57,541 bases of DNA from Fidelibacterota bacterium. Its GTDB lineage: Bacteria > Fidelibacterota > Marinisomatia > Marinisomatales > JACNKV01. Positions 3,261 to 34,217 of the stretch are shown here, piece after piece; within the stretch, counting starts at the first letter, position 1; each line of letters opens with the position of its first letter. Both the position numbers and the translations under genes were made by a program. Location of the stretch: positions 1-57,541 of the forward strand of contig JACNKV010000075.1 of NCBI GenBank assembly GCA_014381855.1, read 5' to 3'. The notes under the pieces are model-generated. The model was not told the origin of the DNA, made no database searches, and worked only from the letters and a program-made list of their open reading frames with translations.

Positions 3261-3857
3261 TTATTTTGTATTGATTGTTTTTTCAGCTTTTTTTAAATCA
3301 TCTGATGTATTAATATTTAAAAATTCCGGCTCTGTTTTTGGCTGCATATTGATATATGCTGTCTTTATACCTTCGAGGATATGGCTAAGACGATAATGAT
3401 TTTGATTCAATGATTCACGGAAATGTGGCATTACAGTTGAGCGATAAAACGAACAAATAGGTTGTGGTATTTTTCGGATTATCGGGATAACAGCACCTAT
3501 ATTTGAACTTCTATTAATTGCCATGGATTGTATGGTCTCTATCCTAATTAGAGGAATATCACATGAAATTACAAATGACCACTCAGTATCACTATGGTTT
3601 AAAGCGGTAATAATACCGTTTAACGCACATTGAATCGGAAATTTATCTTCAATAAAAGGAAATGGATGCGATGATGAGTCCTTCCCTACAATAAATGTAT
3701 TCTTAGCGACAGTTGATATTTTATCGTAGAGAATTTCCGTAAGCGTTCGGTTATTTAACTTAGCGATACTCTTATCAGAAAAAAATCTCCGGCTCTGTCC
3801 TCCCATGAGAATATATGCATTGTAGGGTGTGTGATTTATCCTGGATATATCCATCAT
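3261..3857 (-). CDS. mobA: molybdenum cofactor guanylyltransferase (MobA-like NTP transferase)
   Basis: 198 aa. N-terminal 'YILMGGQSRRF' nucleotide-binding loop and a size typical of MobA. It is the last gene of the sensor kinase / regulator operon next to a bis-MGD enzyme cluster. Confidence 0.7.
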   Translation of the reverse strand: MMDISRINHTPYNAYILMGGQSRRFFSDKSIAKLNNRTLTEILYDKISTVAKNTFIVGKDSSSHPFPFIEDKFPIQCALNGIITALNHSDTEWSFVISCDIPLIRIETIQSMAINRSSNIGAVIPIIRKIPQPICSFYRSTVMPHFRESLNQNHYRLSHILEGIKTAYINMQPKTEPEFLNINTSDDLKKAEKTINTK

Positions 3858-3860
3858 TGC

Positions 3861-7374: not shown

Positions 7375-7432
7375 CATATATACTCGTTGTACGTACAACA
7401 CAAATAAACAGAAACTAAGGAGTTAAATAATA

Positions 7433-8812: not shown

Positions 8813-8828
8813 TTGGTTTTGAAAAATC

Positions 8829-8854
8829 GCAAGGGTGGCAATCGTCACCCTTGC
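8829..8854 (+). terminator. stem-loop (partial terminator or attenuator) after the porin gene
   Basis: GCAAGGGTG-N8-CACCCTTGC forms a 9-bp GC-rich stem followed by TTATTT. It sits 20 nt before the next start codon. Confidence 0.55.
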
Positions 8855-8876
8855 TTATTTCAAAAAGGAAGATAAT

Positions 8877-9254
8877 ATGAAAAACAAAAAATATGTGGTG
8901 GTAATAAGTTGTGCTGTCTTGGGGATGATTATAGGCTTATGGTCATGTTGTAATCCACCTGCACTTCAGGTGCAATCCACCGAAATTCACGAAGATGTTG
9001 ACTTCAGCCTTGGTTGTACAGAATGCCATGAAGAAGAGACACCTGACATTTTTGAAGATTGGGCAATCAGTGGTCACGGAGCAATGAATTATGGCTGTTA
9101 TATTTGCCATGGAGATGGAACTATAGAATTTTATCCTGAGCCTTCAATTGATGGATGTACATCCTGTCACGAATCTGCTGCTGGACATTTAATGAGAGTA
9201 GAGAATGATGGTTGTTTCGAATGTCATGACGGTCACTCTCTTGAACCATATTAA
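8877..9254 (+). CDS. small tetraheme c-type cytochrome (NapM-like), probable lipoprotein
   Basis: Four CxxCH motifs (CTECH, CYICH, CTSCH, CFECH). Hydrophobic N-terminus ends in 'LWSCC'. ATG 8877 is preceded by AAAAGGAAG. The tracked GTG 8835 start would run through the hairpin. Confidence 0.8.
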   Translation: MKNKKYVVVISCAVLGMIIGLWSCCNPPALQVQSTEIHEDVDFSLGCTECHEEETPDIFEDWAISGHGAMNYGCYICHGDGTIEFYPEPSIDGCTSCHESAAGHLMRVENDGCFECHDGHSLEPY

Positions 9255-9265
9255 GGAGAATAATA

Positions 9266-11548
9266 ATGAATAAAAAACAAACACGTAGAGAATTTATTAA
9301 AGTTACCGCAGCTGCTTCAACAGCAGCAGGAATTGGCGTTACGCTATTTCCCGGAATGACTTTTGCTGATCAAAAAAGCGGCACCAACTGGCATAAATCA
9401 GTTTGCAGGTATTGCGGAGTCGGTTGTGGTGTTATGATTGGTGAAAAAGGTGGCAAAATCGTTAAAGTAAAAGGCGACGCTCAAAACACGATTAACAAAG
9501 GTCATCTTTGTGTGAAAGCATTTTATCTGCCAAAAGCAGTCAATGCTAAAACAAGGTTGCACCATCCTATGATTCGGAAAAACGGTAAATTGGTCAAAGC
9601 TTCTTGGGATGAAGCAATGAAACTGGTCGCAACCAAATTTAACGATATCCGAAAAAATCATGGCGGCAATGCATTGGCATTTTATGGTTCCGGGCAAGCT
9701 GAGACAGAAGAAACCTATATGGCAAACAAATTGTTCAAGGGCTGTATCGGTACCAACAATGTCGAAGGAAACCCAAGACTTTGTATGGCAAGTGCTGTGG
9801 GTGGATATTTGACTAGTTTAGGGGCTGATGAACCCGCCGGAACGTATGAAGACATCGAAAAAACAGAATTGTTTTTTCTTGCCGGTTCAAATACTGCTGA
9901 GGCACATCCCATTGTGTTTGAGCGAATCATGCGGCATAAAGCGATGAATCCGAATGTTAAAATAATCATTTTGGATCCACGTAAAACACCGACAGATCAA
10001 GTTGCTGATTTGCACCTCTTTCCTAAACCGGGATATGACTTAGCCGTTTTTAATGCAATGGCACATATCTTGATAAAAGAAGGATTTGCAGATGATGCCT
10101 TTATCAAGAATCATTTGTTCTTTAAGGATAATAAGAAAAACAAACATTCCTTTGAAGAATACAAAAAGTTCTTAGAGGACTATACTCCGGAGATAGCAGA
10201 AGAAATCAGTGGCGTTCCTGCAAAGGATATTGTCAAAGCAGCCCGGATGTTCGGTAAAGCCAAAACGGCTATGAGTATGTGGACAATGGGTTTAAATCAG
10301 CGTAAACGCGGAGTATGGGCAAACAATCTGGTTCATAACTTACATCTTATTACAGGTAAAATCGGTGTGCCTGGCAGTGATTCGTTTTCACTGACCGGAC
10401 AGCCAAATGCCTGCGGTGGTGTTCGTGAAGGTGGTGGTCTATGTCATCTGCTTCCTGGGCATCATCTTGTCGTAAAAGAAGCCCATCGTGAAAAGGTTGC
10501 AAAAGTTTGGGGAGTCCCCGCAAGCAACATTCAACCTAAACCGGGTAAACATACAATAGCAATGTTCTCAGCTTTAAATGCCGGAGAGATTAAAGGAATG
10601 TATATCATGTGTACAAATCCTGCTCAATCTCTGCCGAATGCGAAAAAATATTGGAAAGGCTTGAAAGAACAGTTTATTGTGGTGGCCGAATCATTCTTCC
10701 CAACGATGACTACTGAATATGCTGATGTTGTTTTACCAGCTTCATTCTGGACCGAAAAAGAAGGGGTTTACGGATGTACGGAAAGACGCTCTCAGTATAT
10801 GCCTCAAATCACTGATCCGCAAGGCGAAGCAAAGTGGGATGCCTTCATCCTTCGTGACCTTGGTAAAGAAATGGGATTCGAAAGGGAATTTGCCAAATAT
10901 GAAACGGCAGAAATCATGTGGGACGAATATCGAGGTCTTACAAAAGGCAAAGATATGAACCTGATGGGAGCCTCTTATAATCGTTTGAAAAAAGTCCGTG
11001 GATTAGTATGGCCAGTTCCGACTGAAAATCATCCTGGAACCTACAAACGTTTTACAGATGGTGATCCAATTTACGATGCTCTCCCGGCTGAAAAGAAAAA
11101 GGGTCGTCGGATGTATTTCTACGGACCAAAAGCAAAAGATGGAAGGGCAACCGTTTGGATGCGTCCTCATGACGGTCCCGGAGAACCAACGAGTGCAGAA
11201 TATCCGTTCGCATTAACCACAGGCCGAATCCTGGAACAATGGCATACGATGACCATGACCGGTACGTCCCCTCAACTTAATAGGTCAGTACCTCATGCTT
11301 ATGTAGAGATTAATCCTGCAGACGCACGGAGTAAGGGAATAACGAATAAAGATCAAGTCATCATAGAGACTCGCAGAGGTGAAATGCAGTTTGAAGCACG
11401 AGTGATTGACAGACCAATCCCGGGTACAATTTTTGTCCCTTGGCATTGGCCTGATAAACCGATCAATGTGCTATGCAGCGATATCTTTGATCCGGGCTCT
11501 AAAGAACCGGAATATAAAGTCGCAGCTGCGAGAATCAGGAAAGTCTGA
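9266..11548 (+). CDS. napA: periplasmic nitrate reductase catalytic subunit, monomeric type (bis-MGD molybdoenzyme)
   Basis: Tat signal 'TRREFIKVTAAAS'. 4Fe-4S motif 'CRYCGVGCGV...C'. Mo-ligand region 'RLCMASAVGGY' as in Nap/Nas enzymes. 760 aa, followed by NapD/G/H-like genes. Confidence 0.85.
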   Translation: MNKKQTRREFIKVTAAASTAAGIGVTLFPGMTFADQKSGTNWHKSVCRYCGVGCGVMIGEKGGKIVKVKGDAQNTINKGHLCVKAFYLPKAVNAKTRLHHPMIRKNGKLVKASWDEAMKLVATKFNDIRKNHGGNALAFYGSGQAETEETYMANKLFKGCIGTNNVEGNPRLCMASAVGGYLTSLGADEPAGTYEDIEKTELFFLAGSNTAEAHPIVFERIMRHKAMNPNVKIIILDPRKTPTDQVADLHLFPKPGYDLAVFNAMAHILIKEGFADDAFIKNHLFFKDNKKNKHSFEEYKKFLEDYTPEIAEEISGVPAKDIVKAARMFGKAKTAMSMWTMGLNQRKRGVWANNLVHNLHLITGKIGVPGSDSFSLTGQPNACGGVREGGGLCHLLPGHHLVVKEAHREKVAKVWGVPASNIQPKPGKHTIAMFSALNAGEIKGMYIMCTNPAQSLPNAKKYWKGLKEQFIVVAESFFPTMTTEYADVVLPASFWTEKEGVYGCTERRSQYMPQITDPQGEAKWDAFILRDLGKEMGFEREFAKYETAEIMWDEYRGLTKGKDMNLMGASYNRLKKVRGLVWPVPTENHPGTYKRFTDGDPIYDALPAEKKKGRRMYFYGPKAKDGRATVWMRPHDGPGEPTSAEYPFALTTGRILEQWHTMTMTGTSPQLNRSVPHAYVEINPADARSKGITNKDQVIIETRRGEMQFEARVIDRPIPGTIFVPWHWPDKPINVLCSDIFDPGSKEPEYKVAAARIRKV

Positions 11549-11740
11549 CAACAGGTAAACTGCAGGAGGTTATAACAAACCTCATTTAGAGGTTATCTTT
11601 GGTTGTTGTGCGATTAATCGTTAAATAATCTCCTGCAGGATTTTCCGAGTTTACCTTGTTAATATCTAATTAATAACTGCTGACATACCTACGACATAAT
11701 GAATACGGTGAGCGTGGTTATGTCAGTTAATGCGAAATAA

Positions 11741-12316
11741 ATGACATCAGCTGATCATATCTCTCGCAGTGAATTTTTTAGTTCATTCATTACAAAAATA
11801 AAAAGTAGTTATTCCGGGACAGCAAAAAAGATTAGTGTTGTGGGTGATGTAGTTTTCCCCCCGGGTGTAACCGGCATTGATCACTTTTTATCGACGTGCA
11901 ACCGATGCGATAAATGCGTTGCTGCGTGTCCGCATGAATCCATTCGCATCTTACACGGAGACGAGGCAAAGTACTCAGGATATCCGATTATCGACTCTCA
12001 AATTCAGCCATGCTTTTTTTGCGGTGATTTTCCCTGTATTAGCGTATGCGATACCGGAGCCCTGATTAAACAAAATAATATGAAAATTGGTGTTGCCGAG
12101 ATTATCACAGAAAATTGTCTGGCACACTCCGGTAATTTTTGTCAAAGCTGCATTAACAATTGTCCGTTAATTGGGAAGGCAATTTTCTGCGGTACAAACG
12201 GAAAGCCGGAAATAAATAAAGAAGTTTGTAACGGCTGCGGGATCTGTGTTCAGGTTTGTCCCGCTGAGCCCGTTGGAATTATCATTAAACAAACGAAGGA
12301 ACTACCATGCCAATAG
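11741..12316 (+). CDS. napF: NapF-like poly-ferredoxin (4Fe-4S clusters)
   Basis: 191 aa with four Cys cluster motifs: 'CNRCDKCVAACP', 'CFFCGDFPCISVC', 'C..C..C...CP' and 'CNGCGICVQVCP'. A 'PPGV' motif precedes the first cluster. Confidence 0.65.
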   Translation: MTSADHISRSEFFSSFITKIKSSYSGTAKKISVVGDVVFPPGVTGIDHFLSTCNRCDKCVAACPHESIRILHGDEAKYSGYPIIDSQIQPCFFCGDFPCISVCDTGALIKQNNMKIGVAEIITENCLAHSGNFCQSCINNCPLIGKAIFCGTNGKPEINKEVCNGCGICVQVCPAEPVGIIIKQTKELPCQ

Positions 12317-12564
12317 CAGGTGTATTAATCTTAACCCAGCCAGAATTATCTGATAATGCGCTGGTAAAATTAAATAAAATGAACAAGGTTACTACCTACG
12401 GTATTCATAAAGAAAATTATATTATTGCCGTACTGGAGGGTAATTCCATATCCGAACTGGAGACCATTACCAATTCAATAACAAGCAAAATACCCGGTGT
12501 TATTGGGGTCTATCCGTCTTACGTGAATTATGAGGAAATAGAAACACAGGAATCCACAGAATAA
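12307..12564 (+). CDS. napD: NapD-like Tat-signal chaperone
   Basis: 85 aa. NapD-like pattern 'IAGVLILTQPE...IIAVLEG.S..E....I.....GVIGV'. Its position next to napA is typical. Confidence 0.75.
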   Translation: MPIAGVLILTQPELSDNALVKLNKMNKVTTYGIHKENYIIAVLEGNSISELETITNSITSKIPGVIGVYPSYVNYEEIETQESTE

Positions 12565-12576
12565 GGGTCTTTGTAA

Positions 12577-13092
12577 ATGTGGGATAACTGGTTAAACAAA
12601 TTAGCAGATTTAAGAGATCCTCTTAGACCTCCCGGTGCCGTTGAAGAAGATGAATTTCTTCAAAAATGTATCCGTTGCCGTAAGTGCGAAGAAGTGTGTC
12701 CTTTTGAATCTATCAAATCTGCGCATGGAGAATGGGGATTAAAAATGGGATCCCCGATTATTCACCCCAGAGATACTCCTTGTTATCTATGTGAAGATTT
12801 TCCTTGCATTGAATCTTGTCCAACGGAAGCTCTTGAGCCCATCAAGTCAAAAAATGATGTTAAAATGGGTATTGCTGTGATCGACAAAACACTCTGCTTT
12901 GCTTATAACGATATTCTGTGCCGCGCGTGTTTTGAGCGATGTCCAATACATAGAGAAGCGATAACGATGAAAGATGAATTATATCCGGTAGTAGATGAAA
13001 ATAAATGTGTCGGTTGCGGAATCTGTGAATATGTATGTCCTACTGAACAACCTGCCATTACTATCATTAGTTCACACAAGGTTGGCGGTTAA
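12577..13092 (+). CDS. napG: NapG-like poly-ferredoxin (4x 4Fe-4S)
   Basis: 171 aa. 'LRPPGA' motif, then 'CIRCRKCEEVCP', 'CYLCEDFPCIESCP', 'C..LCRACFERCP' and 'CVGCGICEYVCP'. Clear paralog of the 11741 gene. Confidence 0.7.
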   Translation: MWDNWLNKLADLRDPLRPPGAVEEDEFLQKCIRCRKCEEVCPFESIKSAHGEWGLKMGSPIIHPRDTPCYLCEDFPCIESCPTEALEPIKSKNDVKMGIAVIDKTLCFAYNDILCRACFERCPIHREAITMKDELYPVVDENKCVGCGICEYVCPTEQPAITIISSHKVGG

Positions 13093-13095
13093 AAT

Positions 13096-13944
13096 ATGAA
13101 GAAATTTGAAAAGTATCTAAATGACCATCTTCATATTTTAAGAAGGATGATGCAAGTGGGCACAGTTCTTTTTATTATCGCAGTTCCGTTACTGAATAAA
13201 ATAGGATATCATGGCGTAAACGGAACCTTTTACAGTTTAAGTATAGGTGAATTGAATATTGTAGACCCGGCTCTGGCATTGCAAACCATTCTACTGACAA
13301 AAAGTATATATCTACCATTAATTTTGGCAATTGTTTTGCCAATTCTTCTTGCTATGTTTCTTGGGAAAGTATTTTGCAGCTGGATGTGTCCTTATAATTT
13401 CCTCGCAGAGTTTACAGAAAAGTTTAGGAAACTAATCAAGCCGGTAGAAAAACAGAAAAATACGAATCCTAGCCCTCAATATTACTGGATAATTTTTGGA
13501 ATAATCCTGGTACTTTTAATGATTACCGGCATTCCGGTCATTACGTTGATTTCTATGCCAGGATTAATCACCTCTCAAATAGCAGATGGAATTCTCTACA
13601 ATGTTGTAGGTATCGAAATATTACTGATAGCATTGCTTTTAATCTTAGAAGTCTTTGTTGCACCAAGATTCTGGTGCAAATATGCTTGTCCGGTTGGAGC
13701 AACTTTATCCTTGGTTAAAACAAAATATGCACTCAAGATAAAATACAGCGCGAAAAGTTGTGCAGAATGTAAAGAAATTAAAGAAAATCCATGCAATCAA
13801 GTCTGTCCTTTGCAATTAAATCCTAAATCTGTGAAAATATATCCTTACTGTAATAACTGTTTTGAATGCATCACAACCTGTAATGATGTTGGCTGTCGTG
13901 CATTAAAAATTACTTTTCAACCATTGAAAACGAATAAACCATAA
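13096..13944 (+). CDS. napH: NapH-like membrane quinol-dehydrogenase Fe-S subunit
   Basis: 282 aa with four predicted TM helices. Two CxxxCP motifs ('CSWMCP', 'CKYACP'). C-terminal ferredoxin-type Cys clusters. Confidence 0.75.
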   Translation: MKKFEKYLNDHLHILRRMMQVGTVLFIIAVPLLNKIGYHGVNGTFYSLSIGELNIVDPALALQTILLTKSIYLPLILAIVLPILLAMFLGKVFCSWMCPYNFLAEFTEKFRKLIKPVEKQKNTNPSPQYYWIIFGIILVLLMITGIPVITLISMPGLITSQIADGILYNVVGIEILLIALLLILEVFVAPRFWCKYACPVGATLSLVKTKYALKIKYSAKSCAECKEIKENPCNQVCPLQLNPKSVKIYPYCNNCFECITTCNDVGCRALKITFQPLKTNKP

Positions 13945-13959
13945 GGAGGAAGAATCTAT

Positions 13960-14427
13960 ATGGTAAAGAAAAAGAAAGTGAAACTTAATAGAAGAGAGTT
14001 TTTCAAAAAGACCGGTTACCTTGGCATAATAGCCTTGGGTATTGGAGCTTTTTTGAAAAATATCTTCTTATATATCTCACCAGAACAGAAAGAAAAGACC
14101 TACCACAAGTATCTTGTTGGGAAGAAAAATCAAATACTTCCGGGTAAGGCAAAAGAGATCACCATTCAAGGTAAACCGGTGTTTGTTGTAAACCAAGGAA
14201 CGGAATTCAAAGTGTTTTCCGGTGTTTGCACACACCTTGGATGCATTATCAAATGGGAAGAAAACAACGACGGTTTTTATTGTCCGTGTCATCAAGGATT
14301 TTTTGATAAATCCGGACGTGTTGTCTCTGGTCCGCCACCGACACCGCTAACAGAATTCCCAGTTGTAGAAGAGAAGAACCTAATCTACATCCAGGTGGAA
14401 GATAAAAAGAAAGGACCCTGGGCATGA
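13960..14427 (+). CDS. Rieske 2Fe-2S protein (Tat-anchored)
   Basis: 'NRREFFKKTG' twin-arginine region plus a TM helix. Rieske boxes 'CTHLGC' and 'CPCHQG'. Confidence 0.88.
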   Translation: MVKKKKVKLNRREFFKKTGYLGIIALGIGAFLKNIFLYISPEQKEKTYHKYLVGKKNQILPGKAKEITIQGKPVFVVNQGTEFKVFSGVCTHLGCIIKWEENNDGFYCPCHQGFFDKSGRVVSGPPPTPLTEFPVVEEKNLIYIQVEDKKKGPWA

Positions 14428-15458
14428 GTACTACATGGACAAAGACACGCATCCCCATTGACGGTGGGAAAATAAAAGAAGCGATGTTTGGTGAGAAAAT
14501 TCCACTCCATATGAAGAATTGGGTTCTCGCAATGGGTACAACACCATTCATTTTGTTCCCATTACAAATTATCACCGGAATATTACTGGCATTATATTTT
14601 GTCCCTTCTGTGGAAATGGCTTACGAAAGTGTCCGGCATATTTCGCAGGATATTCGATATGGATTTTGGATACGAGGTATTCATCACTGGGGAGCAAATC
14701 TGATGGTCATTTCTCTATTTCTCCATATGATGCGAGTGTTTTTCACTCATTCATACAGAAAGCCACGAGAAATCAATTGGGTATTTGGATTCCTATTGCT
14801 GTCTCTGACATTGACAATCTCGTTTACCGGTTATTCTTTAACCTATAATCAGGTGTCTTATTGGGCTGCAACAGTCGGAACAAATCTTGTTAAGGAAATC
14901 CCATTAATCGGAGGATTTGTGCTCAGCCTTCTACGAGGAAGTGAAGGGGTTACGGCTCATACACTAACCAGGTTTTACACGTTGCATGTGTGGATATTGC
15001 CTGTAGTGATATCACTTATCATCGGTGCACATATCTTTTTAGTTCGGTCGCACGGTGTATCAGAACCTGATGGATTTGAAAAAGGTCACTACGATTTCTA
15101 TCCTGGACATTTCTACAAAATTATTGTTGTAACACTGTTCCTGATTTCGTTATTGAGTTTACTGTCTGTGGTCTTACCACCTGGACTTGGTGAACAGGCA
15201 GACCCGGCGAACACCCCGCTTCACATTAAACCTGAGTGGTATTTCTTCCCTGTGTTTTTGATTTTACGATTTGTCCCGTTACAACTTGGATTAGCCATCA
15301 CAGGACTGGCAATTGTTTTGATGATATTCTGGCCATTCATTGAGCCGATGTTATCAAAGAAGAAAAAATCACGCACAGTCATAGCAAACATCATTGGATG
15401 TATCGCGATTGTCATCTTAATTACACTTACAATCTTTGAAGCATTTTCAATCATTTAA
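14424..15458 (+). CDS. cytochrome b (b6 plus subunit-IV-like fusion) of a Rieske/cyt b complex
   Basis: 344 aa and polytopic. 'RGIHHWGANLM' and 'FYTLHVWILP' heme-ligand helices. 'PEWYF' motif as in the cyt b/b6f Qo region. ATGA overlap with the Rieske gene. Confidence 0.88.
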   Translation: MSTTWTKTRIPIDGGKIKEAMFGEKIPLHMKNWVLAMGTTPFILFPLQIITGILLALYFVPSVEMAYESVRHISQDIRYGFWIRGIHHWGANLMVISLFLHMMRVFFTHSYRKPREINWVFGFLLLSLTLTISFTGYSLTYNQVSYWAATVGTNLVKEIPLIGGFVLSLLRGSEGVTAHTLTRFYTLHVWILPVVISLIIGAHIFLVRSHGVSEPDGFEKGHYDFYPGHFYKIIVVTLFLISLLSLLSVVLPPGLGEQADPANTPLHIKPEWYFFPVFLILRFVPLQLGLAITGLAIVLMIFWPFIEPMLSKKKKSRTVIANIIGCIAIVILITLTIFEAFSII

Positions 15459-15476
15459 TAAGAAAGAGGAATAACA

Positions 15477-17090
15477 ATGGAAAATAAAAACATAACACAA
15501 TGGTTAATCGGCGTCTTTAGTCTTGTCATGATCGTTTCTTTGATGATCGTAGCCGGTTATGAAGTAAATAAAACAAAAGAACAAGGGCATGAGATTGACG
15601 TTGACAAAGTATCTGCCCGTTGTATCACGTGCCATGAAAAAGAAAACATTGCTGTGAAGCAAATTCACGCATGGGAAGAAAGTGAACATGCATTAATGGG
15701 CATCGGCTGCAACGAATGTCATGAAGCAAAAGAAGGCGATTTTGATGCCTTTTACTGCGAAAACAGCGATATGCTTGTCGGTCGTCATCCTACTCCAAAA
15801 GACTGTGAGGAATGCCACGATCAGGAAGTAAAAGAATTTGCGAACAGTAAACATGCCCATCAGTTCTGGCTTTTTGCTAATGCGGATAGGGCGACATTTG
15901 AAAATCCAATTTCTACCAGACATGGATGTGAACAATGCCACCAAATTGGGAATTTATGGCCTGACGGTAGTGTCGGAGAATGTGACGCTTGCCATTCCAA
16001 ACATTCATTCGATTTAGCAGTTGCACGTCAACCTGAAACATGCGGAGAATGCCACATTGGACCTGACCATCCCCATATTGAGATTTACAATGAATCTAAA
16101 CACGGAAATATTTTCAAAGCCAAAGGCAGCGATTGGGCCATGGATTATCATACAGACAACTTTGAACCCATCCCAATTGAAGCTCCGGTTTGTGCCACCT
16201 GCCATATGGATGGGAACGAAACACAACCCATGACACACGACGTCAGTGCTCGTTTGGCGTGGGAGTCTCAGTCTCCGTGGAGTTATAGAACTGTTTGGGA
16301 TGAAGAAAACCTTGGTAGCTGGGATATGAAACGTGGTCGCATGGAATCAATCTGCCAGAGTTGCCATGCACCTGATTTTGTTGATACATATTTGTTAACA
16401 GCTGATTTAGTCAATCTTCAGTATAATGAAATGCGAAGAAACTTTGTTTATTGGACAAAGAAATTGACCAATAATGGGACGATAGATCGGTTGAAAGCAA
16501 ATGGTGAATTTAAATCCAATCCTGTCCTCAATGGATGGGACGAAACACCGGAGCATGAAATGTATTATGCCTGGCATCATGAAGGTCGACGTTTTCGTCA
16601 TGGAGCTGAAATGATGGGAGCAGATTTCACCCAATGGCACGGCGTCTGGGAACTCCAAGAAGATATGGTTGAATTAATTACTTGGGCCGCAGAACATGGG
16701 GACCATGAAGCAGAAAAATGGGTTATTTCTAATCATCCTTCCAAGTTTGTTCCGTATGCACTTTACGACATCCCGGGCAATGCATGGGGTATTGGGGCAA
16801 AAACAAATACCACTCCGTTTGTTTATAACGAATACTCAGATTATTGGGATCGGGTCAAGGCAAATGTGAAGACAGCCTATGAGAAAGGACTGCTTACAAA
16901 AGATCAGTGGAATCTGTGGATGGATCGATACGAAAATAAGGACCATTATCTTGGATTAAAATATGCAAATGATCCTAAAGTCGTAGAAAAATGGGATTTC
17001 TACAAAGAACGTAATGCCATTGATACAAAGGCTTTCAAAGAACAAGCTGTTCAATTAAAGTTACCCGGAAAGCCCTTCTACACTAAATAA
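15477..17090 (+). CDS. membrane-anchored octaheme c-type cytochrome, hydroxylamine-oxidoreductase (HAO) family-like
   Basis: Eight CxxCH motifs (CITCH, CNECH, CEECH, CEQCH, CDACH, CGECH, CATCH, CQSCH). HAO-like segment 'CGECHIGPDHPHIEIYNESKHG'. N-terminal TM helix. Confidence 0.75.
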   Translation: MENKNITQWLIGVFSLVMIVSLMIVAGYEVNKTKEQGHEIDVDKVSARCITCHEKENIAVKQIHAWEESEHALMGIGCNECHEAKEGDFDAFYCENSDMLVGRHPTPKDCEECHDQEVKEFANSKHAHQFWLFANADRATFENPISTRHGCEQCHQIGNLWPDGSVGECDACHSKHSFDLAVARQPETCGECHIGPDHPHIEIYNESKHGNIFKAKGSDWAMDYHTDNFEPIPIEAPVCATCHMDGNETQPMTHDVSARLAWESQSPWSYRTVWDEENLGSWDMKRGRMESICQSCHAPDFVDTYLLTADLVNLQYNEMRRNFVYWTKKLTNNGTIDRLKANGEFKSNPVLNGWDETPEHEMYYAWHHEGRRFRHGAEMMGADFTQWHGVWELQEDMVELITWAAEHGDHEAEKWVISNHPSKFVPYALYDIPGNAWGIGAKTNTTPFVYNEYSDYWDRVKANVKTAYEKGLLTKDQWNLWMDRYENKDHYLGLKYANDPKVVEKWDFYKERNAIDTKAFKEQAVQLKLPGKPFYTK

Positions 17091-17149
17091 TTATTGTAGT
17101 GTTCAATTGAACGACTATGGTAATTTATACCGCTAAATAAAATAGAAGT

Positions 17150-17177
17150 GTTGGGGTTGTCAATTGGCAGCCCCAAC
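17150..17177. terminator. GC-rich hairpin after the octaheme cytochrome gene
   Basis: GTTGGGGTTG-N8-CAGCCCCAAC forms a 10-bp stem with one G-U pair. No T-tract follows on the + strand, so its terminator function is uncertain. Confidence 0.4.
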
Positions 17178-17180
17178 AAA

Positions 17181-17280
17181 ACTCCGAGTTCGACAACCTG
17201 TCCTCGTGTGAGCATGGTTTAGAACCGATAGGGTGGAGTTGGAAACGGCTTCGCCTCCCGCGCTTGGAAAGGAGCACATA
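17181..17280 (+). promoter_or_regulatory. candidate Moco (molybdenum cofactor) riboswitch, translational OFF type
   Basis: P1 pairs CUCC (17182-85) with GGAG (17271-74), sequestering the SD AAAGGAG. Internal helices are 17185-88/17203-06, 17216-26 and 17232-38/17249-55. The 3' core CUUCGCCUCCCGCGCUUGGAAAGGAG resembles the E. coli moaA Moco motif as I remember it; this was not computed. Confidence 0.6.
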
Positions 17281-19548
17281 ATGAAATACATACAAAAAAT
17301 ATCCTTAATTATATTATTCATCTTGTCGTATACATTCTGCAACACCGAAATATCCGGGATTGTAAGAGACGAACACAATAATCGACTGCTTGAGGGATGC
17401 AATATTACCCTGGAGGGTACGAAAATTGGTGTCACCACAAATCAATCCGGACACTATTGTTTCAACGATGTCGAACCGGGGATGTATACTCTTTGTGCAG
17501 AGTATATCGGTTACATAACCACCGTAGAAACTATTCAGGTAAATATAGACCAAACTTTGAATATTGACTTCTGCCTATCTCCTACTGTAATCAAAGGAAA
17601 TGAAGTGGTGGTCACTGCAACAAGAACAGAGCATAGATTAGTGGATATCCCCGGAAGAATAGATGTGGTTACACACGCTGAGTTAAATAGTCTGCCTACC
17701 CAAAATCTAGATGACATTCTAAAATACTTATCGGGTCTTAATGTCCATCGAACTTCAGGGATATTTGAGATCAGACCGGTTGTAAGTTTGCGCGGAGTTT
17801 CAGGAGATGAACCGGGAAGAACTTTGGTGTTAGTCAACAGCACTCCAATTAATAAATCTGATACTGGAGTGGCAAACTGGAACAGAATCAATGTAGCAAA
17901 TATAAAACAAATTGAAATCTTCAAAGGCGCCGGTTCATCTCTGTACGGGAATAACGCCATGGGAGGAGTGATAAATATTATCACTCAAACTCCAGATGAC
18001 AATTTTAGCGGAAAGGCTCATGCTTCATACGGAACCTATAATACATTGAGTGGAAACCAATATATTTCAGGCCGGAAGAATGCTTATTATTATAATTTTG
18101 GTTGGTTCACACGCAAAAGCGATGGGTATTATGACCTTCCTGATAGTTTACAGGATGACTATTCAGTCCCGCTATTTCTAGATGAAAAAGGGATATCAAC
18201 TACAGTAGGATTTAATTTTACTCCTAATAATACTTTTGAAATCATTTATGATTATTACGACGATAAACGAGGTGAAGGTGTAAAAATCGAAGAAAAAGAC
18301 GGAAAGCATCGCAGCTTCGATACAAATATGTTACAAGTAAAATTAACTGGGAAAAATAAAAAGTCCAGATACGAAATAAACGGATTTTATCAACATGAGA
18401 ATTATTTAAGAGTAAGTGAAGATTTTAAAAATGGCTCATATTATAAATTTGATGTCGCTTCAAACCGAATTGATAGAGGGGTGTTATTTAATTATACTCG
18501 TGATATAGGTAGCTATCATTTAATCACTGTTGGCTCAGAATTGAAATCCGGGAGTGTCGATGGTGGTGATTATTATGCCACGCCTGACACCACCCCGCGT
18601 GATACGGTTTTAAATCGTGGTAAAATGCAATTCAGAACATTATATCTGCAGGATGAGTTCAATCTTTTTGGCAACAAACTGCGGTTTGTTGCCGGAATCC
18701 GATATGATAATGTAAAATTCCATCAGGGATATTTCCATGCCAACCTGGAATCAAATCCTTTCTATTCTTACAATGGTCATCTTGATGAAAATGAGTGGAA
18801 TGCAATGAGTCCAAGAGTAGCCGTGAAATATCATTTTGGAAACCAAATGAGTGGTTATCTTTCTTACTCTCAAGGTTTCCGTGCTTCGATACTTGACGAT
18901 TTATGTCGTTCGGGGTGGATGCGGCTTGGACCGAAAGAAGCCAATCCAGACCTAGGTCCCGAAACAATAGACAGTTATGAACTTGGGTTAGATTATTCAC
19001 CGACTTCAAATGTAAAAATATCCCCTTCATTCTATTTTTCGAAAGGACACGATTTTCTATATTTTGTTGCTACCGGTGATTCACTTTGGGGTAGAAAGCC
19101 CATCTACAGAAGAGAAAATATAACCGGAGTTGATATTTATGGTGCTGAAATCGATTTTACATTCAGACCAAATCATAATATTTCGCTTCATGGTAATTAT
19201 TCGTATAATCACTCGACAATATTTGAATTTTCTAAAAACCCGGAATTGGAGGAAAACTATTTAGTTTACTCCCCTATTCATCAAGCCAATGCAACAATGC
19301 AGTGGAGGAACAAGTATTTAAACATTAATTTTGGAATTAACTATAAAGATAAACAATTCACTAACGATGATAATTCTGAAGAATTGGCTGCATATTATAC
19401 CATAGATGCCCAGCTGTCAAAAGTACTGTATAAAAAAGTCAACATAGCCATCGATTTTCAGAATATTACAGATATAAGACAGACAGAACATTTAGAAAGG
19501 CTTTCCCCTGGAAGATTAATCAATTTGATGCTATCATACGATTGGTAG
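17281..19548 (+). CDS. TonB-dependent receptor with N-terminal CarboxypepD_reg-like domain
   Basis: Signal peptide MKYIQKISLIILFILSYTFC. Plug domain ('VVVTATRTEH', 'IEIFKGAGSSLYGNNAMGGVINIIT'). Long beta-barrel ending in 'LSYDW'. The tracked GTG 17233 start lies inside the leader RNA structure. Confidence 0.9.
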   Translation: MKYIQKISLIILFILSYTFCNTEISGIVRDEHNNRLLEGCNITLEGTKIGVTTNQSGHYCFNDVEPGMYTLCAEYIGYITTVETIQVNIDQTLNIDFCLSPTVIKGNEVVVTATRTEHRLVDIPGRIDVVTHAELNSLPTQNLDDILKYLSGLNVHRTSGIFEIRPVVSLRGVSGDEPGRTLVLVNSTPINKSDTGVANWNRINVANIKQIEIFKGAGSSLYGNNAMGGVINIITQTPDDNFSGKAHASYGTYNTLSGNQYISGRKNAYYYNFGWFTRKSDGYYDLPDSLQDDYSVPLFLDEKGISTTVGFNFTPNNTFEIIYDYYDDKRGEGVKIEEKDGKHRSFDTNMLQVKLTGKNKKSRYEINGFYQHENYLRVSEDFKNGSYYKFDVASNRIDRGVLFNYTRDIGSYHLITVGSELKSGSVDGGDYYATPDTTPRDTVLNRGKMQFRTLYLQDEFNLFGNKLRFVAGIRYDNVKFHQGYFHANLESNPFYSYNGHLDENEWNAMSPRVAVKYHFGNQMSGYLSYSQGFRASILDDLCRSGWMRLGPKEANPDLGPETIDSYELGLDYSPTSNVKISPSFYFSKGHDFLYFVATGDSLWGRKPIYRRENITGVDIYGAEIDFTFRPNHNISLHGNYSYNHSTIFEFSKNPELEENYLVYSPIHQANATMQWRNKYLNINFGINYKDKQFTNDDNSEELAAYYTIDAQLSKVLYKKVNIAIDFQNITDIRQTEHLERLSPGRLINLMLSYDW

Positions 19549-19559
19549 GAAATTTGTAA

Positions 19560-20141
19560 ATGAGTCTACAAAAATATTTCACAAGAACAATACTGATGGG
19601 AACAATCTGGGGTTTAGTTGAAGTCTTTTTATCCCCAATCATAAAAAGTATTACACCACACTTATTTAGTGTAATCATGCCATCTATTGCAATTGTAATC
19701 ATTTTAATCGGGCGATATTTCGTTCCATATTTTGGTTCAACCATTTCAATGGGAATTATTGCTGCGTTTGTCGAATATATGCTCGGCGGGATGTTACTTG
19801 ACGGCGCATTTATGGCTATCATTTTAGAAGCTGTATTCTGTGAGTTGATTCTGTCAGTTGTTGGTTTCAATTTATGGTCATTTGTATTATCGTGCATTAC
19901 CATCCTTGACTATAGTGTTTTACATCCGTTAATCAAAAAAGGTGTTTCCTGTCAATCCATGCAACATATCTTTGTAAAGAACCTATTACACACATTGTTT
20001 ATTGTTGACAAATCTGTATTAACTGCTGTAGATATCACATTTATACTGTTGGCTTTTCATACTATAATTGGTATGTTTCTAGGCTTTCTGTTTTATTTCT
20101 TATTTCAGAAGATTTCCATAACAGAAAAGGAATTCGCATGA
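19560..20141 (+). CDS. small polytopic membrane protein, unknown family (paralog 1)
   Basis: 193 aa with about 5-6 hydrophobic helices. Shares 'GT.WGL.E..L.S', 'II.LI.R', 'GST' and 'IAA' blocks with the next gene. Confidence 0.7.
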   Translation: MSLQKYFTRTILMGTIWGLVEVFLSPIIKSITPHLFSVIMPSIAIVIILIGRYFVPYFGSTISMGIIAAFVEYMLGGMLLDGAFMAIILEAVFCELILSVVGFNLWSFVLSCITILDYSVLHPLIKKGVSCQSMQHIFVKNLLHTLFIVDKSVLTAVDITFILLAFHTIIGMFLGFLFYFLFQKISITEKEFA

Positions 20142-20713
20142 CCAAAACCTCCATCGCATACACCGCTGTTTTTGGAACACTTTGGGGGTTAGCTGAAGCC
20201 ACGCTTGGTTCGGTAATGCACTTGATAAATCTACCCTTATCCGGATCTGTGCTTTCAACAGTTGGGATGATCATCGTCCTAATCGCCAGAGGAGTCAACC
20301 CCCAACGCGGAAGCACGTTGATGATGGCATTAATTGCAGCCATGATAAAAATAATGAGTTTTGCAACTGTAAAACTTGGCCCTTTTGTCGGGATATTGCT
20401 GGAAGGCGTAATGCTGGAAATGATTCTCACAATATTTTCACCAAATTTTCTGGGATTCATGCTATCTGGGATTATTGTTTCAGTCTATCCGCTCATTCAG
20501 ACGCTCACGGTAAAAACAATTCTATTCGGAGCAGATTTTATTCCGGTTATTCTCGAAATGGCGGAGGGTTTTTCACATCGCATCGGTTTTGGAGCAGGAT
20601 GGTGGATTTTGGGTCTTTATGTGTCCATTCACTTTGTTTTCGGAGTCGGGGGAGCTTTATTTGCATGGCTCATAAAATCGCAACTTAACAAGAAAATAAT
20701 TAATGAATCTTAA
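20138..20713 (+). CDS. small polytopic membrane protein, unknown family (paralog 2)
   Basis: 191 aa. ATGA overlap with paralog 1. Same conserved blocks ('GTLWGLAEATLGS', 'IIVLIARG', 'GSTLMMALIAAM'). Confidence 0.7.
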   Translation: MTKTSIAYTAVFGTLWGLAEATLGSVMHLINLPLSGSVLSTVGMIIVLIARGVNPQRGSTLMMALIAAMIKIMSFATVKLGPFVGILLEGVMLEMILTIFSPNFLGFMLSGIIVSVYPLIQTLTVKTILFGADFIPVILEMAEGFSHRIGFGAGWWILGLYVSIHFVFGVGGALFAWLIKSQLNKKIINES

Positions 20714-21815
20714 ATCCCTAATAACATCGTTGCGGCTTGGGGTCTCTCTGCTCATATTCATCGGAGTCTTTTTCCTGCAAATAAGTCCCGTCGGAATCAC
20801 ATGTCTTATTTTCATTATTGCATGGATATACAATCACAATACGGTACGTCCATTAAAACGAATACCGTTTTGGGTCACCATCGGAATATTGGTGATTGCC
20901 GTTCCGATTTTCACAGGGATTCAAGATAAAACATTCTTAACAATAACGTATAGCAGTGTTCAATTATCAAAAACAATGCTGATGGCATTTAGGGGAATTT
21001 CTGTCTTCCTTCTTTTTCAGGTGATAACAATAAACCTGAACAGCGAAAAAGTTACAGCGCTATTTACAAAACTTGGCTTCAGCAATTTTAATTCTGTTTA
21101 CACTTTATCGAATAAAACCATGCCGCATCTCCGCAGCATTTTGTCTGCACGTGTTACGGAGCTTCGTGTTGAATGGAAGGCTCATCATCAACTCAAAAGT
21201 GTATTCGATTTTATTATTTTAGTATTACGAGATTTAATCCGATTGGCGGAATCTTTGGGGAGCGACACATCCGGCAACGAAAAAATCACACCTTTGGATT
21301 TCATTCAAGCACGCAAGAATGTAAACCCACCTTCATTAACCGTTATTACCGGTGAATCGGGAACGGGGAAATCCAGATGGTTAGCAAGTTTGGTGACTTG
21401 CCTGAACAGTGCCGGTAATAATGTGGACGGAATTATCTCAGAAAAACATCGAATCTCTGACAGCGATTGGCATCATAACCTTCTGCGAATAGAGACAGGA
21501 GAAAAGTGGCAATTAAATACGATGAGCAATTTTGATACGCACATCCATGTCGGCAAGTTTTTCTTTTACCCGGATGTCATCGAATGGGGTTGTAATCAAT
21601 TAATCGAATCCATCGATGCAAACTATCTGATTATTGACGAAATTGGAATTTTAGAATTTAATGGGGAGGGGTTTCTACCGGCGTTAAAAATAATCGATGA
21701 TAACTTTCAAGGATACCTTATCATCACAATTCGTCGTCAATTAATGAATCAACTGGACATATTTTTAAAAAGTCATCTTCCGACAATCAGCAAGTGGAAA
21801 AGAACAACCGTCTGA
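20703..21815 (+). CDS. fusion protein: EcfT/CbiQ-like membrane domain plus THEP1/DUF2478-like P-loop NTPase
   Basis: 370 aa. The N-terminal ~190 aa has 4-5 TM helices and an EcfT-like coupling segment 'LFTKLGF...MPHLRSILSAR'. The C-terminal domain has Walker A 'GESGTGKS' and Walker B 'LIIDEIGILEFNGEGF'. No ABC signature (LSGGQ) is present. 11-nt overlap with the upstream gene. Confidence 0.6.
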   Translation: MNLKSLITSLRLGVSLLIFIGVFFLQISPVGITCLIFIIAWIYNHNTVRPLKRIPFWVTIGILVIAVPIFTGIQDKTFLTITYSSVQLSKTMLMAFRGISVFLLFQVITINLNSEKVTALFTKLGFSNFNSVYTLSNKTMPHLRSILSARVTELRVEWKAHHQLKSVFDFIILVLRDLIRLAESLGSDTSGNEKITPLDFIQARKNVNPPSLTVITGESGTGKSRWLASLVTCLNSAGNNVDGIISEKHRISDSDWHHNLLRIETGEKWQLNTMSNFDTHIHVGKFFFYPDVIEWGCNQLIESIDANYLIIDEIGILEFNGEGFLPALKIIDDNFQGYLIITIRRQLMNQLDIFLKSHLPTISKWKRTTV

Positions 21816-34203: not shown

Positions 34204-34217
34204 TTTAGTTCCTTTTT

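What the first reader, a model, noticed from the sequence alone, without database searches (positions are those of the whole stretch)
17281..21815. Four-gene operon behind the riboswitch: candidate new Mo/W or pterin-related uptake system
Seen directly: four tightly coupled + strand genes.
- Spacing: a 11-nt gap, then a 4-nt ATGA overlap, then an 11-nt overlap.
- Products: a TonB-dependent outer-membrane receptor, two paralogous ~190-aa polytopic membrane proteins, and a membrane-domain/P-loop NTPase fusion.
- Absent: any periplasmic binding protein, ABC ATPase, ModABC, TupABC or WtpABC homolog.

Established knowledge: Moco riboswitches regulate molybdate/tungstate transport and cofactor synthesis genes. 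TonB-dependent receptors import scarce metal chelates. Catecholate metallophores of Azotobacter are known to bind molybdate.

Inference: the operon sits between a nap cluster and a Moco-like leader. This suggests an energy-coupled import route for molybdate or tungstate, possibly chelated, or for a pterin intermediate. The inner-membrane machinery would be of an undescribed type.
Basis: inference. Interest (0 to 1): 0.88.

Follow-up and report, generated by a model that had tools for sequence, protein, structure and literature searches.

The report
Riboswitch-controlled ECF-like molybdenum/tungsten uptake system
A four-gene operon behind a molybdenum-cofactor-sensing RNA encodes an outer-membrane receptor and a vitamin-type (ECF-like) inner-membrane transporter whose usual ABC motor is replaced by a THEP1-type NTPase; it is most likely an undescribed route for importing molybdenum or tungsten, or their cofactor.

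Summary

The membrane proteins can now be identified. The two ~190-aa paralogs are ECF-transporter S components with a YkoE-like fold. The N-terminal half of the fourth protein is a divergent EcfT/CbiQ T component. Its C-terminal half is a THEP1/NTPase_1 P-loop NTPase, where ECF systems normally have ABC ATPases.

Across 65 related loci from several phyla, S, T and NTPase occur as S | T-NTPase, S-T-NTPase or S-T | NTPase. A canonical relative (L090) pairs the same S and T families with a double ABC ATPase.

All eight Moco riboswitches found in 1.34 Mb of related DNA sit in front of this system. Of the 65 loci, 37 carry Mo-linked neighbours (DUF364, MobA-like, XdhC, molybdoenzymes). TonB-dependent receptors are adjacent in at least 12.

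The Mo/W or Moco link is therefore well supported. The exact substrate and whether the NTPase is the motor remain inferred. No description was found in the searchable literature. I rate it a new variant of a known kind, of high interest.

The parts
17149..17178 (+). 13-bp GC-rich hairpin immediately 5' of, and overlapping, the first bases of the aptamer. It may be the 3' end or insulator of the upstream nap/eHao transcript, or a 5' stabiliser.
   Evidence: MFE and centroid folds of 17140-17300. No T-run follows it, so it is not a classical intrinsic terminator.
17170..17290 (+). Moco/Tuco riboswitch aptamer, the P3-lacking variant. P1 includes the SD of the first gene, so it should act as a translational OFF switch.
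   Evidence: RF01055 at 70.4 bits, E 5e-15, with P3 columns deleted. My own covariance model R1 scores it 124.7 bits. P3-less variants correlate with tungsten-cofactor metabolism in Regulski 2008 (PMC2408646).
17281..19548 (+). TonB-dependent outer-membrane receptor (755 aa) with an N-terminal carboxypeptidase-regulatory-like domain and a signal peptide.
   Evidence: Pfam CarbopepD_reg_2, Plug and TonB_dep_Rec_b-barrel. All NCBIfam specific models score far below their cutoffs. The nearest PDB sequences are PhuR, CirA and BtuB, all weak.
19560..20141 (+). memA: ECF S-component paralog (193 aa), a rare clade always found behind a Moco riboswitch.
   Evidence: Paralog of memB. Weak PF09819 hit. 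The clade with L001 8799-9380 and L006 4494-5117(-) is riboswitch-linked in 3 of 3 cases. L087 8859-9440 was not in that tree; it holds memA's position in a riboswitch-led copy of the cassette. Only 3 close relatives exist among 5.8 bn proteins.
20138..20713 (+). memB: ECF S component (191 aa), the conserved partner of the T-NTPase gene.
   Evidence: The AF2 model has pLDDT 90. Its top PDB fold hit is 5edl, an ECF S component (deposited title; identified as YkoE from memory): prob 1.00, TM 0.60, 196 of 197 columns. PF09819 gives weak hits in 16 of 25 family members. It sits directly upstream of the fusion gene in 16 of the 18 distinct two-gene (S | T-NTPase) loci; the other two contigs are cut just upstream.
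20703..21284 (+). T-component (EcfT/CbiQ-like) membrane domain of the fusion protein, residues 1 to about 194. Conserved RG (R97-G98) and AR (R150) motifs lie in the long helices.
   Evidence: Profile A5 finds 502 relatives. Of 50 tested, 15 hit Pfam CbiQ. P0130 and P0136 score above the gathering cutoff over profile positions 16-206 and 20-201 of 216. Weak Foldseek hits to EcfT chains 7nnu_D and 7nnt_D.
21315..21815 (+). THEP1/NTPase_1-type P-loop NTPase domain, residues about 205-370. Walker A (G217, G222, K223) and Walker B (D312, E313) are invariant.
   Evidence: PF03266 at 1.7e-13. PDB 1ye8 at E 3e-7 by sequence and 9e-6 by fold. Invariant columns are listed.
3261..3857 (-). MobA-like nucleotidyltransferase (context). 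In relatives this gene lies next to the S/T-NTPase module (divergently in L007, L088 and L089).
   Evidence: PF12804 at 1.9e-23. MobA-like genes lie next to the module in 11 loci, plus L088 and L089.
8835..17090 (+). Context: periplasmic nitrate reductase (Nap-type molybdoenzyme at 9266-11548), ferredoxins, Rieske/cytochrome b, and a multihaem eHao-like cytochrome. These are the local consumers of Mo-bisMGD.
   Evidence: Pfam. The same cluster type is described in Caldithrix abyssi (PMC5317091).

Best explanation
**What it is.** The operon encodes a two-membrane uptake route for a molybdenum or tungsten species. Expression shuts off when the cell has enough Moco or W-cofactor.

**Regulation.** The riboswitch binds the cofactor and closes P1. 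This hides the ribosome-binding site of the first gene. Translation of the three downstream genes is coupled through the short gap and overlaps.

**Transport.**
- The TonB-dependent receptor carries the scarce substrate across the outer membrane.
- In the inner membrane, two S-component paralogs (memA and memB) bind substrate.
- Both share one T component (CbiQ/EcfT-like). That T component is fused to a cytoplasmic THEP1-type P-loop NTPase, not docked to two ABC ATPases.
- NTP hydrolysis by this domain is proposed to move the T-domain coupling helices and topple the S component, as in ECF transporters.

**Substrate.** My preferred substrate is molybdate or tungstate, free or chelated. In other phyla the module replaces ModABC as the translationally coupled partner of DUF364. 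The two S paralogs may separate Mo from W, or free from chelated forms.

**Shown:** riboswitch identity, gene coupling, S fold, T homology, NTPase family, fusion patterns, and the genomic link to Mo genes.

**Inferred:** direction of transport, substrate identity, and the motor role of the NTPase.
For: 1. **Riboswitch.** RF01055 at 70 bits, with the SD inside P1.
2. **S component.** The memB model matches the YkoE S component 5edl (prob 1.0, TM 0.60) and the folate S component. PF09819 gives weak hits in 16 of 25 members. JGI names homologs 'thiamin/HMP transport permease'.
3. **T component.** A TM-domain profile retrieves proteins that Pfam calls CbiQ above threshold. L090 shows the same S family (mem HMM 7e-36) and T family (tm HMM 1.5e-23) in a canonical operon with a double ABC ATPase and a TonB-dependent receptor.
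4. **Rosetta-stone fusions.** S | T-NTPase, S-T-NTPase (~570 aa, 39 aligned) and S-T | NTPase all occur.
5. **No ABC motor nearby.** No ABC ATPase lies next to the S/T-NTPase modules. L020's is MlaEF; the only other candidate, in L041, lies about 4 kb away and was not examined.
6. **Active-site residues.** Walker A and B residues are invariant.
7. **Mo link.**
   - 8 of 8 Moco riboswitches in 1.34 Mb precede the system, in Marinimicrobia-like and Ignavibacteria loci and in both P3-minus and P3-plus forms.
   - DUF364 is overlapping or adjacent in 14 loci.
   - MobA-like genes are present in 11 loci, plus 2 more (L088, L089).
   - XDH-type enzymes occur in 8 loci and MopB enzymes in 8; XdhC in 3, one of them (L070) a stand-alone-NTPase locus.
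   - DUF364 is otherwise conserved beside modABC (bioRxiv 10.1101/2024.03.05.583561).
8. **Outer-membrane partner.** TonB-dependent receptors are adjacent in at least 12 loci, often within 20 nt.
Against: - No experiment exists, and no binding-site chemistry points to an oxyanion.
- ECF S components are known for vitamins and for Ni/Co cations, not oxyanions.
- Molybdate normally crosses the outer membrane through porins, so a receptor suggests a larger or chelated ligand.
- The same NTPase clade is fused to, or adjacent to, a genuine ABC ATPase in Chloroflexi FecCD-type importers (L045, L068, L077). It can therefore coexist with an ABC motor and may have a different job.
- The window protein itself does not hit Pfam CbiQ directly. 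The T assignment is transitive, supported only by weak fold hits (E 0.02).
- Only 8 of the 57 module-bearing loci scanned with Rfam and/or my own model R1 carry the riboswitch, and 28 of 65 loci show no Mo-linked neighbour among the categories I labelled.
- The receptors next to different modules are only 21-27% identical, so they are not clearly orthologous.
Confidence: 0.6

Rival explanations
1. The machinery is the same, but the cargo is a preformed pterin: Moco, W-cofactor, MPT or cPMP salvaged from the environment. The receptor handles a ligand too large or too scarce for porins. The S components bind it as they bind other vitamins. The adjacent MobA-like enzyme converts imported Mo-MPT into the dinucleotide form needed by Nap or XDH-type enzymes.
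For: - ECF S components typically bind organic cofactors; the closest fold is the S component 5edl, which from memory is thiamine-binding YkoE.
- TonB-dependent receptors typically import large ligands (about 400 Da and above), and they are adjacent in at least 12 loci.
- MobA-like genes (11 loci plus 2) and XdhC insertion chaperones act downstream of finished Moco and are the commonest biosynthetic neighbours. No moaA, moaC or moeA cluster emerged among conserved neighbours.
- No Moco biosynthesis gene other than the MobA-like one was found in the 57-kb window.
- Conserved Trp, Arg and Lys residues in the S component (W16, R51, K126; K71, K79, W155 and W156 nearly invariant) would suit a phosphorylated pterin.
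Against: - Moco and MPT are extremely oxygen-labile, and free pools in nature are undocumented.
- DUF364, the tightest partner in Bacteroidales, is otherwise linked to molybdate ABC transporters.
- Whole-genome absence of moa/moe genes could not be tested.
- Absence of moa genes from my neighbour clusters is weak evidence, because only clusters found in 3 or more loci were annotated.
Confidence: 0.22
2. The NTPase is not the motor. It is a cytoplasmic cargo-handling factor, such as a metallochaperone-like or activating NTPase that hands Mo/W to the cofactor pathway, tethered to the transporter. Transport itself would be facilitated diffusion through the S components (as for solitary BioY or BtuM), or would be driven by EcfA/A' proteins encoded elsewhere.
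For: - In Chloroflexi the same NTPase clade is fused to the C-terminus of a bona fide ABC ATPase (L045: ABC_tran 3e-34 plus NTPase_1 3e-22). In L068 and L077 it follows one, within PBP2/FecCD importer operons.
- As I recall the literature, THEP1 and NTPCR are slow, non-specific NTPases with no known motor role.
- Stand-alone NTPases also sit beside MobA-like, XDH and XdhC genes without any S or T gene detected (L014, L060, L070).
- 24 of 39 triple fusions give weak MobB P-loop hits.
Against: - A T component has no known function other than coupling an ATPase to S. Here it is retained, conserved, and covalently joined to the NTPase directly after its long cytoplasmic helices.
- The canonical relative L090 has an ABC ATPase exactly where the NTPase-type systems have none.
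- The MobB hits are P-loop only and below threshold.
Confidence: 0.3
3. The system imports a nutrient unrelated to Mo or W, such as thiamine/HMP (as YkoE does), haem or iron, or cobalamin. The Moco riboswitch association would then be incidental to this lineage.
For: - The closest solved fold, by my recollection of entry 5edl, is a thiamine-binding S component, and JGI labels homologs as thiamin/HMP permeases.
- The receptor's best NCBIfam and PDB similarities are to haem, siderophore and B12 receptors.
- A cobalamin riboswitch lies just downstream of the module in L006.
- 28 of 65 loci have no labelled Mo neighbour.
Against: - No TPP, cobalamin or other riboswitch precedes the module in any of 88 sources, while 8 Moco riboswitches do, in two phyla and two architectures.
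- Identity to YkoE is 18%.
- All specific receptor models score far below their cutoffs.
- The neighbours DUF364, MobA-like, XdhC, XDH and MopB are all Mo-specific themes.
- The L006 cobalamin riboswitch faces the next gene, not the module.
Confidence: 0.06

Closest known systems
Group I ECF transporters of the YkoEDC type (S = YkoE, T = YkoC/CbiQ family, A = duplicated ABC ATPase YkoD)
   Same: - An S component with the same fold (5edl, TM 0.60).
- A compact ~190-aa CbiQ-family T component.
- Dedicated operon organisation.
- Riboswitch control of a cofactor-related importer.
- A direct canonical relative of both the S and T families, with a double ABC ATPase, exists in L090.
   Different: - There is no ABC ATPase. 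The T domain is instead fused to a THEP1/NTPase_1 P-loop NTPase.
- There are two S paralogs.
- The regulator is a Moco riboswitch, not a TPP riboswitch.
- The genomic partners are Mo/W genes.
- An outer-membrane TonB-dependent receptor is part of the operon.
CbiMNQO / NikMNQO metal ECF transporters with TonB-dependent receptors (for example the NikR-regulated loci of Caldithrix abyssi, PMC5317091)
   Same: An ECF-type inner-membrane system for a trace metal, combined with a TonB-dependent receptor in a Gram-negative FCB-group or related bacterium, and regulated by the metal or cofactor status.
   Different: - The S component is not CbiM/NikM-like.
- The cargo would be an oxyanion or a pterin, not a cation.
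- The motor is not CbiO.
ModABC, TupABC, WtpABC and MolBC-A molybdate/tungstate ABC importers
   Same: - The same physiological niche: supplying Mo/W for Moco.
- Also controlled by Moco riboswitches in many bacteria (PMC2408646).
- DUF364 is a shared neighbour.
   Different: - No periplasmic binding protein.
- No type I or type II permease.
- No ABC ATPase.
- No ModA homolog within 10 kb of any module.
THEP1 (Aquifex aq_1292, PDB 1ye8) and human NTPCR (2i3b), Pfam NTPase_1, with the related DUF2478
   Same: The C-terminal domain matches by sequence and by fold, including Walker A and the DEIG Walker B motif. 25 of 39 triple fusions also hit DUF2478.
   Different: The known members are soluble stand-alone proteins of unknown cellular role. 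Here the domain is covalently attached to a transporter T component, or in Chloroflexi to an ABC ATPase.

Membership tests
Moco RNA motif riboswitch (RF01055) | Covariance-model score above the Rfam gathering threshold, with P1, P2, P4 and P5 and the conserved core | tested here: met
   70.4 bits against 36, model positions 1-135. Seven further examples at homologous positions.
Moco RNA motif riboswitch (RF01055) | P3 stem present (Moco-type) or absent (proposed W-cofactor type) | tested here: not met
   P3 columns are deleted in the window and L002 (alignments); L001 and L087 are inferred to lack it from their length (121-122 nt). P3 is present and extended in L028, L038 and L063. What this means for ligand specificity is only a correlation (PMC2408646).
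Moco RNA motif riboswitch (RF01055) | Ligand-dependent control of expression | not testable with these tools
   Only the SD-in-P1 architecture is seen.
ECF transporter (type III ABC importer) | S component with the six-helix S fold | tested here: met
   The AF2 model (pLDDT 90) matches 5edl at prob 1.00, TM 0.60, and 9kym_D at TM 0.47. PF09819 gives weak hits in 16 of 25 members.
ECF transporter (type III ABC importer) | T component of the CbiQ/EcfT family | tested here: met
   Met transitively. Profile A5 leads to P0130 and P0136 (E 1e-17 to 1e-18), which lead to Pfam CbiQ at 31-35 bits against a cutoff of 25. A direct Pfam scan of the window protein is negative. Foldseek to EcfT chains is weak (E 0.02).
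ECF transporter (type III ABC importer) | Two ABC ATPase subunits (EcfA/EcfA') as the energising module | tested here: not met
   No significant ABC_tran match in the four proteins (only a P-loop-level hit at E 0.049, 14.7 bits against a cutoff of 25). Among module loci only L020 and L041 have an ABC-like ORF within 5 kb; L020's is MlaEF and L041's was not examined. An ATPase encoded elsewhere in the genome cannot be excluded.
TonB-dependent receptor | Plug domain plus 22-strand barrel domain, with a signal peptide | tested here: met
   PF07715 at 1e-22 and PF00593 at 8e-35. The N-terminal MKYIQKISLIILFILSYTFC is read directly.
TonB-dependent receptor | Assignment to a substrate-specific subfamily (haem, siderophore, B12 and so on) | tested here: not met
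   All NCBIfam equivalog and subfamily models score far below their cutoffs.
ModABC / TupABC / WtpABC | Periplasmic oxyanion-binding protein plus type I permease plus ABC ATPase | tested here: not met
   No such domains in the operon. tblastn with E. coli ModA and ModB found no ModA in 1.34 Mb around the modules. There is one ModB-like permease, 8 kb away in L005.
THEP1 / NTPase_1 (PF03266) | Pfam score above the gathering cutoff, with Walker A GxxGxGK[ST] and Walker B hhDEIG | tested here: met
   51.2 bits against 23.9. 1ye8 at E 3e-7 and fold E 9e-6. G217, G222, K223, D312 and E313 are invariant.
MobB (PF03205) | Full-length match above the gathering cutoff | tested here: not met
   Only P-loop-level hits, E 2e-4 or worse and below the cutoff, in 24 of 39 triple fusions. 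There is no hit for the window protein.

The most novel reading that the evidence does not exclude
Bacteria of the FCB group and their neighbours salvage preformed molybdenum or tungsten cofactor, or its pterin precursors, from their surroundings. They would do so through a dedicated receptor and an ECF-like transporter. That transporter would be driven by a THEP1-family NTPase, not an ABC ATPase. This would be both the first bacterial Moco uptake system and the first non-ABC motor on an ECF scaffold. It would also give the enigmatic THEP1/NTPCR family a cellular function.
Probability: 0.15. Interest if true: 0.95.

Novelty: new variant of a known kind. Interest (0 to 1): 0.8.

Why it matters
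- **Mo/W acquisition.** Outside the ModABC, TupABC and WtpABC systems, Mo/W uptake is poorly understood. My loci, which come mostly from FCB-group bacteria, show no ModA near their molybdoenzyme genes.
- **A widespread module.** This work identifies a module with 502 representative clusters for the T domain. It is tied to Moco by riboswitches and gene neighbourhood, and it can be tested directly by complementing E. coli mod or moa mutants.
- **Mechanism.** It would be an ECF-type S/T pair whose ABC ATPases have been displaced by an unrelated P-loop NTPase. That challenges the view that ECF transporters are by definition ABC transporters.
- **THEP1/NTPCR function.** It offers a first functional context for this family.
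- **Annotation.** It gives names to hundreds of 'hypothetical' membrane proteins and 'THEP1' genes in metagenomes.
- **Tungsten.** The P3-minus versus P3-plus riboswitch split offers a handle on tungsten biology.

Tried and rejected
- **Direct family scans.** Pfam and NCBIfam scans of memA, memB and the TM domain gave nothing above threshold. Pfam on 39 triple fusions likewise saw nothing in the TM parts. PDB sequence searches with profiles A1 and A2 found only the NTPase.
- **Fold search on the fusion.** Foldseek with the whole fusion model gave only weak EcfT hits, because the NTPase domain dominates.
- **Literature.** Searches on Moco riboswitch with TonB, DUF2478, S-component with THEP1, CbiQ with THEP1 or PF03266, and ECF with molybd* found no description of such a system. 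The A. baumannii molybdate paper and the Geotalea paper were not relevant.
- **One receptor orthogroup?** Rejected. The module-adjacent receptors share only 21-27% identity with the window receptor.
- **ABC ATPase in L020.** I considered it as an EcfA and rejected this. It is MlaF, with MlaE beside it.
- **L060 ORF.** The 354-aa ORF between the NTPase and the MobA-like gene showed no similarity to the S-T profile.
- **memA relatives.** The search returned only 3 close relatives, so no wider memA-type survey was possible.
- **modABC anti-correlation.** A genome-wide test could not be run. Only local absence was checked.
- **Promoter and terminator scans.** These were uninformative, with counts at shuffle level.

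Full report
**1. Observation**

Rfam places a full-length Moco RNA motif (RF01055) at 17170-17290 on the + strand. It scores 70.4 bits against a gathering score of 36, and the P3 stem is deleted. The AGGAG ribosome-binding site of the first gene is part of the 3' strand of P1, 8 nt before the ATG at 17281.

Four + strand genes follow:
- TonB-dependent receptor, 17281-19548
- memA, 19560-20141
- memB, 20138-20713
- membrane/NTPase fusion, 20703-21815

The junctions are an 11-nt gap, an ATGA overlap and an 11-nt overlap. Pfam confirms CarbopepD_reg_2, Plug and barrel domains in the receptor and NTPase_1 (PF03266) in the C-terminal half of the fusion. memA and memB are paralogs (34% identity, E 1e-17). 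No binding protein, ABC ATPase or Mod/Tup/Wtp component is present.

**2. What the membrane proteins are**

*S components.* An AlphaFold model of memB (pLDDT 90) has one clear PDB match, 5edl. That entry is deposited as 'an S-component of ECF transporter'; identifying it as the YkoE S component of a group I ECF vitamin transporter, in complex with thiamine, rests on my memory of the literature. The match has probability 1.00 and TM 0.60 over 196 of 197 columns. A folate S component is a lower hit. Sixteen of 25 family members give weak hits to PF09819, the YkoE-type family. JGI labels some homologs as thiamin/HMP permease.

*T component.* The N-terminal ~190 residues of the fusion have no direct Pfam hit. 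I built a profile of this domain (A5) and searched it against 1.84 billion representative proteins. It found 502 relatives.
- Fifteen of 50 sampled relatives match Pfam CbiQ, the EcfT family.
- Two stand-alone ~199-aa relatives (P0130, P0136) score above the gathering cutoff over almost the whole CbiQ model.
- The genomic context of P0136 (L090) is a textbook group I ECF operon: a double ABC ATPase, an S component that matches my memB HMM at 7e-36, the CbiQ protein that matches my TM HMM at 1.5e-23, and then a TonB-dependent receptor.

*NTPase.* The C-terminal domain is THEP1-like by sequence (1ye8, E 3e-7) and by fold (E 9e-6). Its Walker A and Walker B residues are invariant.

The system is therefore an ECF-type S/T pair in which a THEP1-type NTPase stands where the ABC ATPases normally are.

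**3. Distribution and architecture**

Genome searches returned 80 loci, and look-ups added more.
- In close relatives (Marinimicrobia/Fidelibacterota-like MAGs), the conserved core is one S gene plus the T-NTPase gene.
- In Bacteroidales, Ignavibacteria, KSB1, Thermodesulfobacteriota and Acidobacteria, the homologous system is usually a single ~570-aa S-T-NTPase protein.
- In some loci it is an S-T protein plus a separate NTPase.

These fusions link the three parts functionally. Essentially no ABC ATPase genes lie next to the modules. The one in L020 is MlaF.

The full cassette with receptor and memA occurs only in the window, L001 and L087. In all three it follows the same nap/eHao cluster and carries the riboswitch. 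Compared with L081, the window has about 16.9 kb extra between the hemerythrin gene and memB. This extra stretch holds the MobA-like gene, a sigma-54 two-component pair, nap, eHao, the riboswitch, the receptor and memA.

**4. Link to molybdenum and tungsten**

*Riboswitches.* Rfam scans of 56 sources, plus my own covariance model run over 88 sources (1.34 Mb), found eight Moco riboswitches. All eight lie directly in front of this system:
- before the receptor in the window, L001 and L087;
- before memB in L002;
- before a memA-type paralog followed by a MobA-like gene in L006;
- before the triple-fusion gene, followed by a receptor (and, in L028 and L063, DUF364), in three Ignavibacteria-type loci (L028, L038, L063).

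No other riboswitch class precedes the module.

*Neighbours.* Neighbour clustering with Pfam annotation shows:

| Neighbour | Loci |
|---|---|
| DUF4213/DUF364, overlapping or adjacent | 14 |
| MobA-like transferase | 11, plus L088 and L089 |
| Xanthine-dehydrogenase-type molybdoenzymes | 8 |
| MopB-type molybdoenzymes | 8 |
| XdhC | 3 (one, L070, is a stand-alone-NTPase locus) |

In all, 37 of 65 module loci have at least one Mo-linked feature within 7 kb. DUF364 is reported as conserved next to modABC. No ModA homolog occurs in the 1.34 Mb.

*P3 variants.* The window riboswitch lacks P3. Regulski et al. correlated this variant with tungsten-cofactor metabolism (PMC2408646). The Ignavibacteria examples retain P3.

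**5. Mechanism and open points**

The best-supported model has three parts:
- cofactor-repressed translation;
- TonB-dependent passage across the outer membrane;
- ECF-like import with two alternative S components sharing one T-NTPase.

Two steps are inferred.

*First, the substrate.* The DUF364 parallel with ModABC favours molybdate or tungstate, possibly chelated. The receptor, the vitamin-type S fold and the MobA/XdhC neighbours keep Moco or pterin salvage alive as an alternative.

*Second, the role of the NTPase.* Its position after the T coupling helices, the absence of ABC genes, and the canonical L090 relative all argue that it is the motor. Against this, the same NTPase clade is fused to a real ABC ATPase in Chloroflexi FecCD/PBP2 importers (L045). 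An accessory, cargo-handling role therefore cannot be dismissed.

**6. Novelty**

Nine full-text searches found no description of an ECF-like S/T system with a THEP1-type NTPase, nor of an ECF-type Mo/W or Moco importer. It fails the ABC-ATPase criterion for membership of the ECF family but plausibly works like one. I classify it as a new variant of a known kind, with high interest.

Noticed in passing
L045 6110-10471 (also L068 434-4925, L077 31-3273, L058, L080): In Chloroflexi, the same THEP1-like NTPase clade is fused to the C-terminus of an ABC ATPase (L045: ABC_tran plus NTPase_1 in one 447-aa protein) or follows one. These sit in PadR / Peripla_BP_2 / FecCD type II importer operons. This may be a MolBC-like Mo/W system with the same accessory domain.
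   Followed up: partly
L090 3081-6732: A canonical ECF operon (double ABC ATPase, S, CbiQ-type T) built from the same S and T families as the window system, also followed by a TonB-dependent receptor. No Moco riboswitch was detected by my model R1.
   Followed up: partly
window 7433-17090: A Nap-type nitrate reductase cluster: porin-like protein, tetrahaem cytochrome, NapA-like enzyme, three ferredoxins, Rieske, cytochrome b and a 537-aa multihaem eHao-like cytochrome. It resembles the Nap/eHao cluster described for Caldithrix abyssi. A sigma-54 regulator and a sensor kinase lie at 3861-7153 (-).
   Followed up: partly
window 3261-20137 compared with L081 8758-10011: Relative to a syntenic relative (HEAT, thymidine phosphorylase, hemerythrin | memB, fusion | RpiB, transketolase), the window carries about 16.9 kb extra. 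The extra stretch holds the MobA-like gene, the regulators, nap/eHao, the riboswitch, the receptor and memA. It looks like an island gained or lost as a unit next to the core module.
   Followed up: partly
window 17149-17178: A perfect 13-bp GC-rich hairpin immediately upstream of, and overlapping, the first bases of the riboswitch match, with no T tract after it. Its role is unknown.
   Followed up: no
L006 11222-11405: A cobalamin riboswitch (65 bits) lies immediately downstream of the T-NTPase gene and faces the next gene. It is unrelated to the module but could mislead context-based annotation.
   Followed up: no
L015 146-1033, L018, L068 3463-4317; L066 917-1549 and four others; L029 11442-12710 and seven others; L046, L072, L073, L020, L078: Recurrent non-Mo neighbours of the module: two families of SAM methyltransferases, a thioredoxin/thioredoxin-reductase fusion, OsmC, DUF134, and YeeE-type Sulf_transp plus rhodanese proteins. 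The sulfur and redox theme might relate to thiomolybdate handling or cofactor sulfuration.
   Followed up: no
L003 1872-3029: The T-NTPase gene is split into two ORFs (1872-2150 and 2166-3029) in this MAG contig. This is either a frameshift or pseudogene, or an assembly error.
   Followed up: no
window 33679-36924 (-): A second TonB-dependent receptor (34218-36395), with a gene syntenic to the HmuY gene of L081 (33679-34203; the window ORF itself was not scanned) and a TetR regulator (36331-36924). It is probably a haem uptake locus. The same trio lies next to the module in L088.
   Followed up: no
L028 2728-2796: A DUF805 RNA motif (RF03081, 75.8 bits) on the minus strand of an Ignavibacteriaceae locus.
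   Followed up: no
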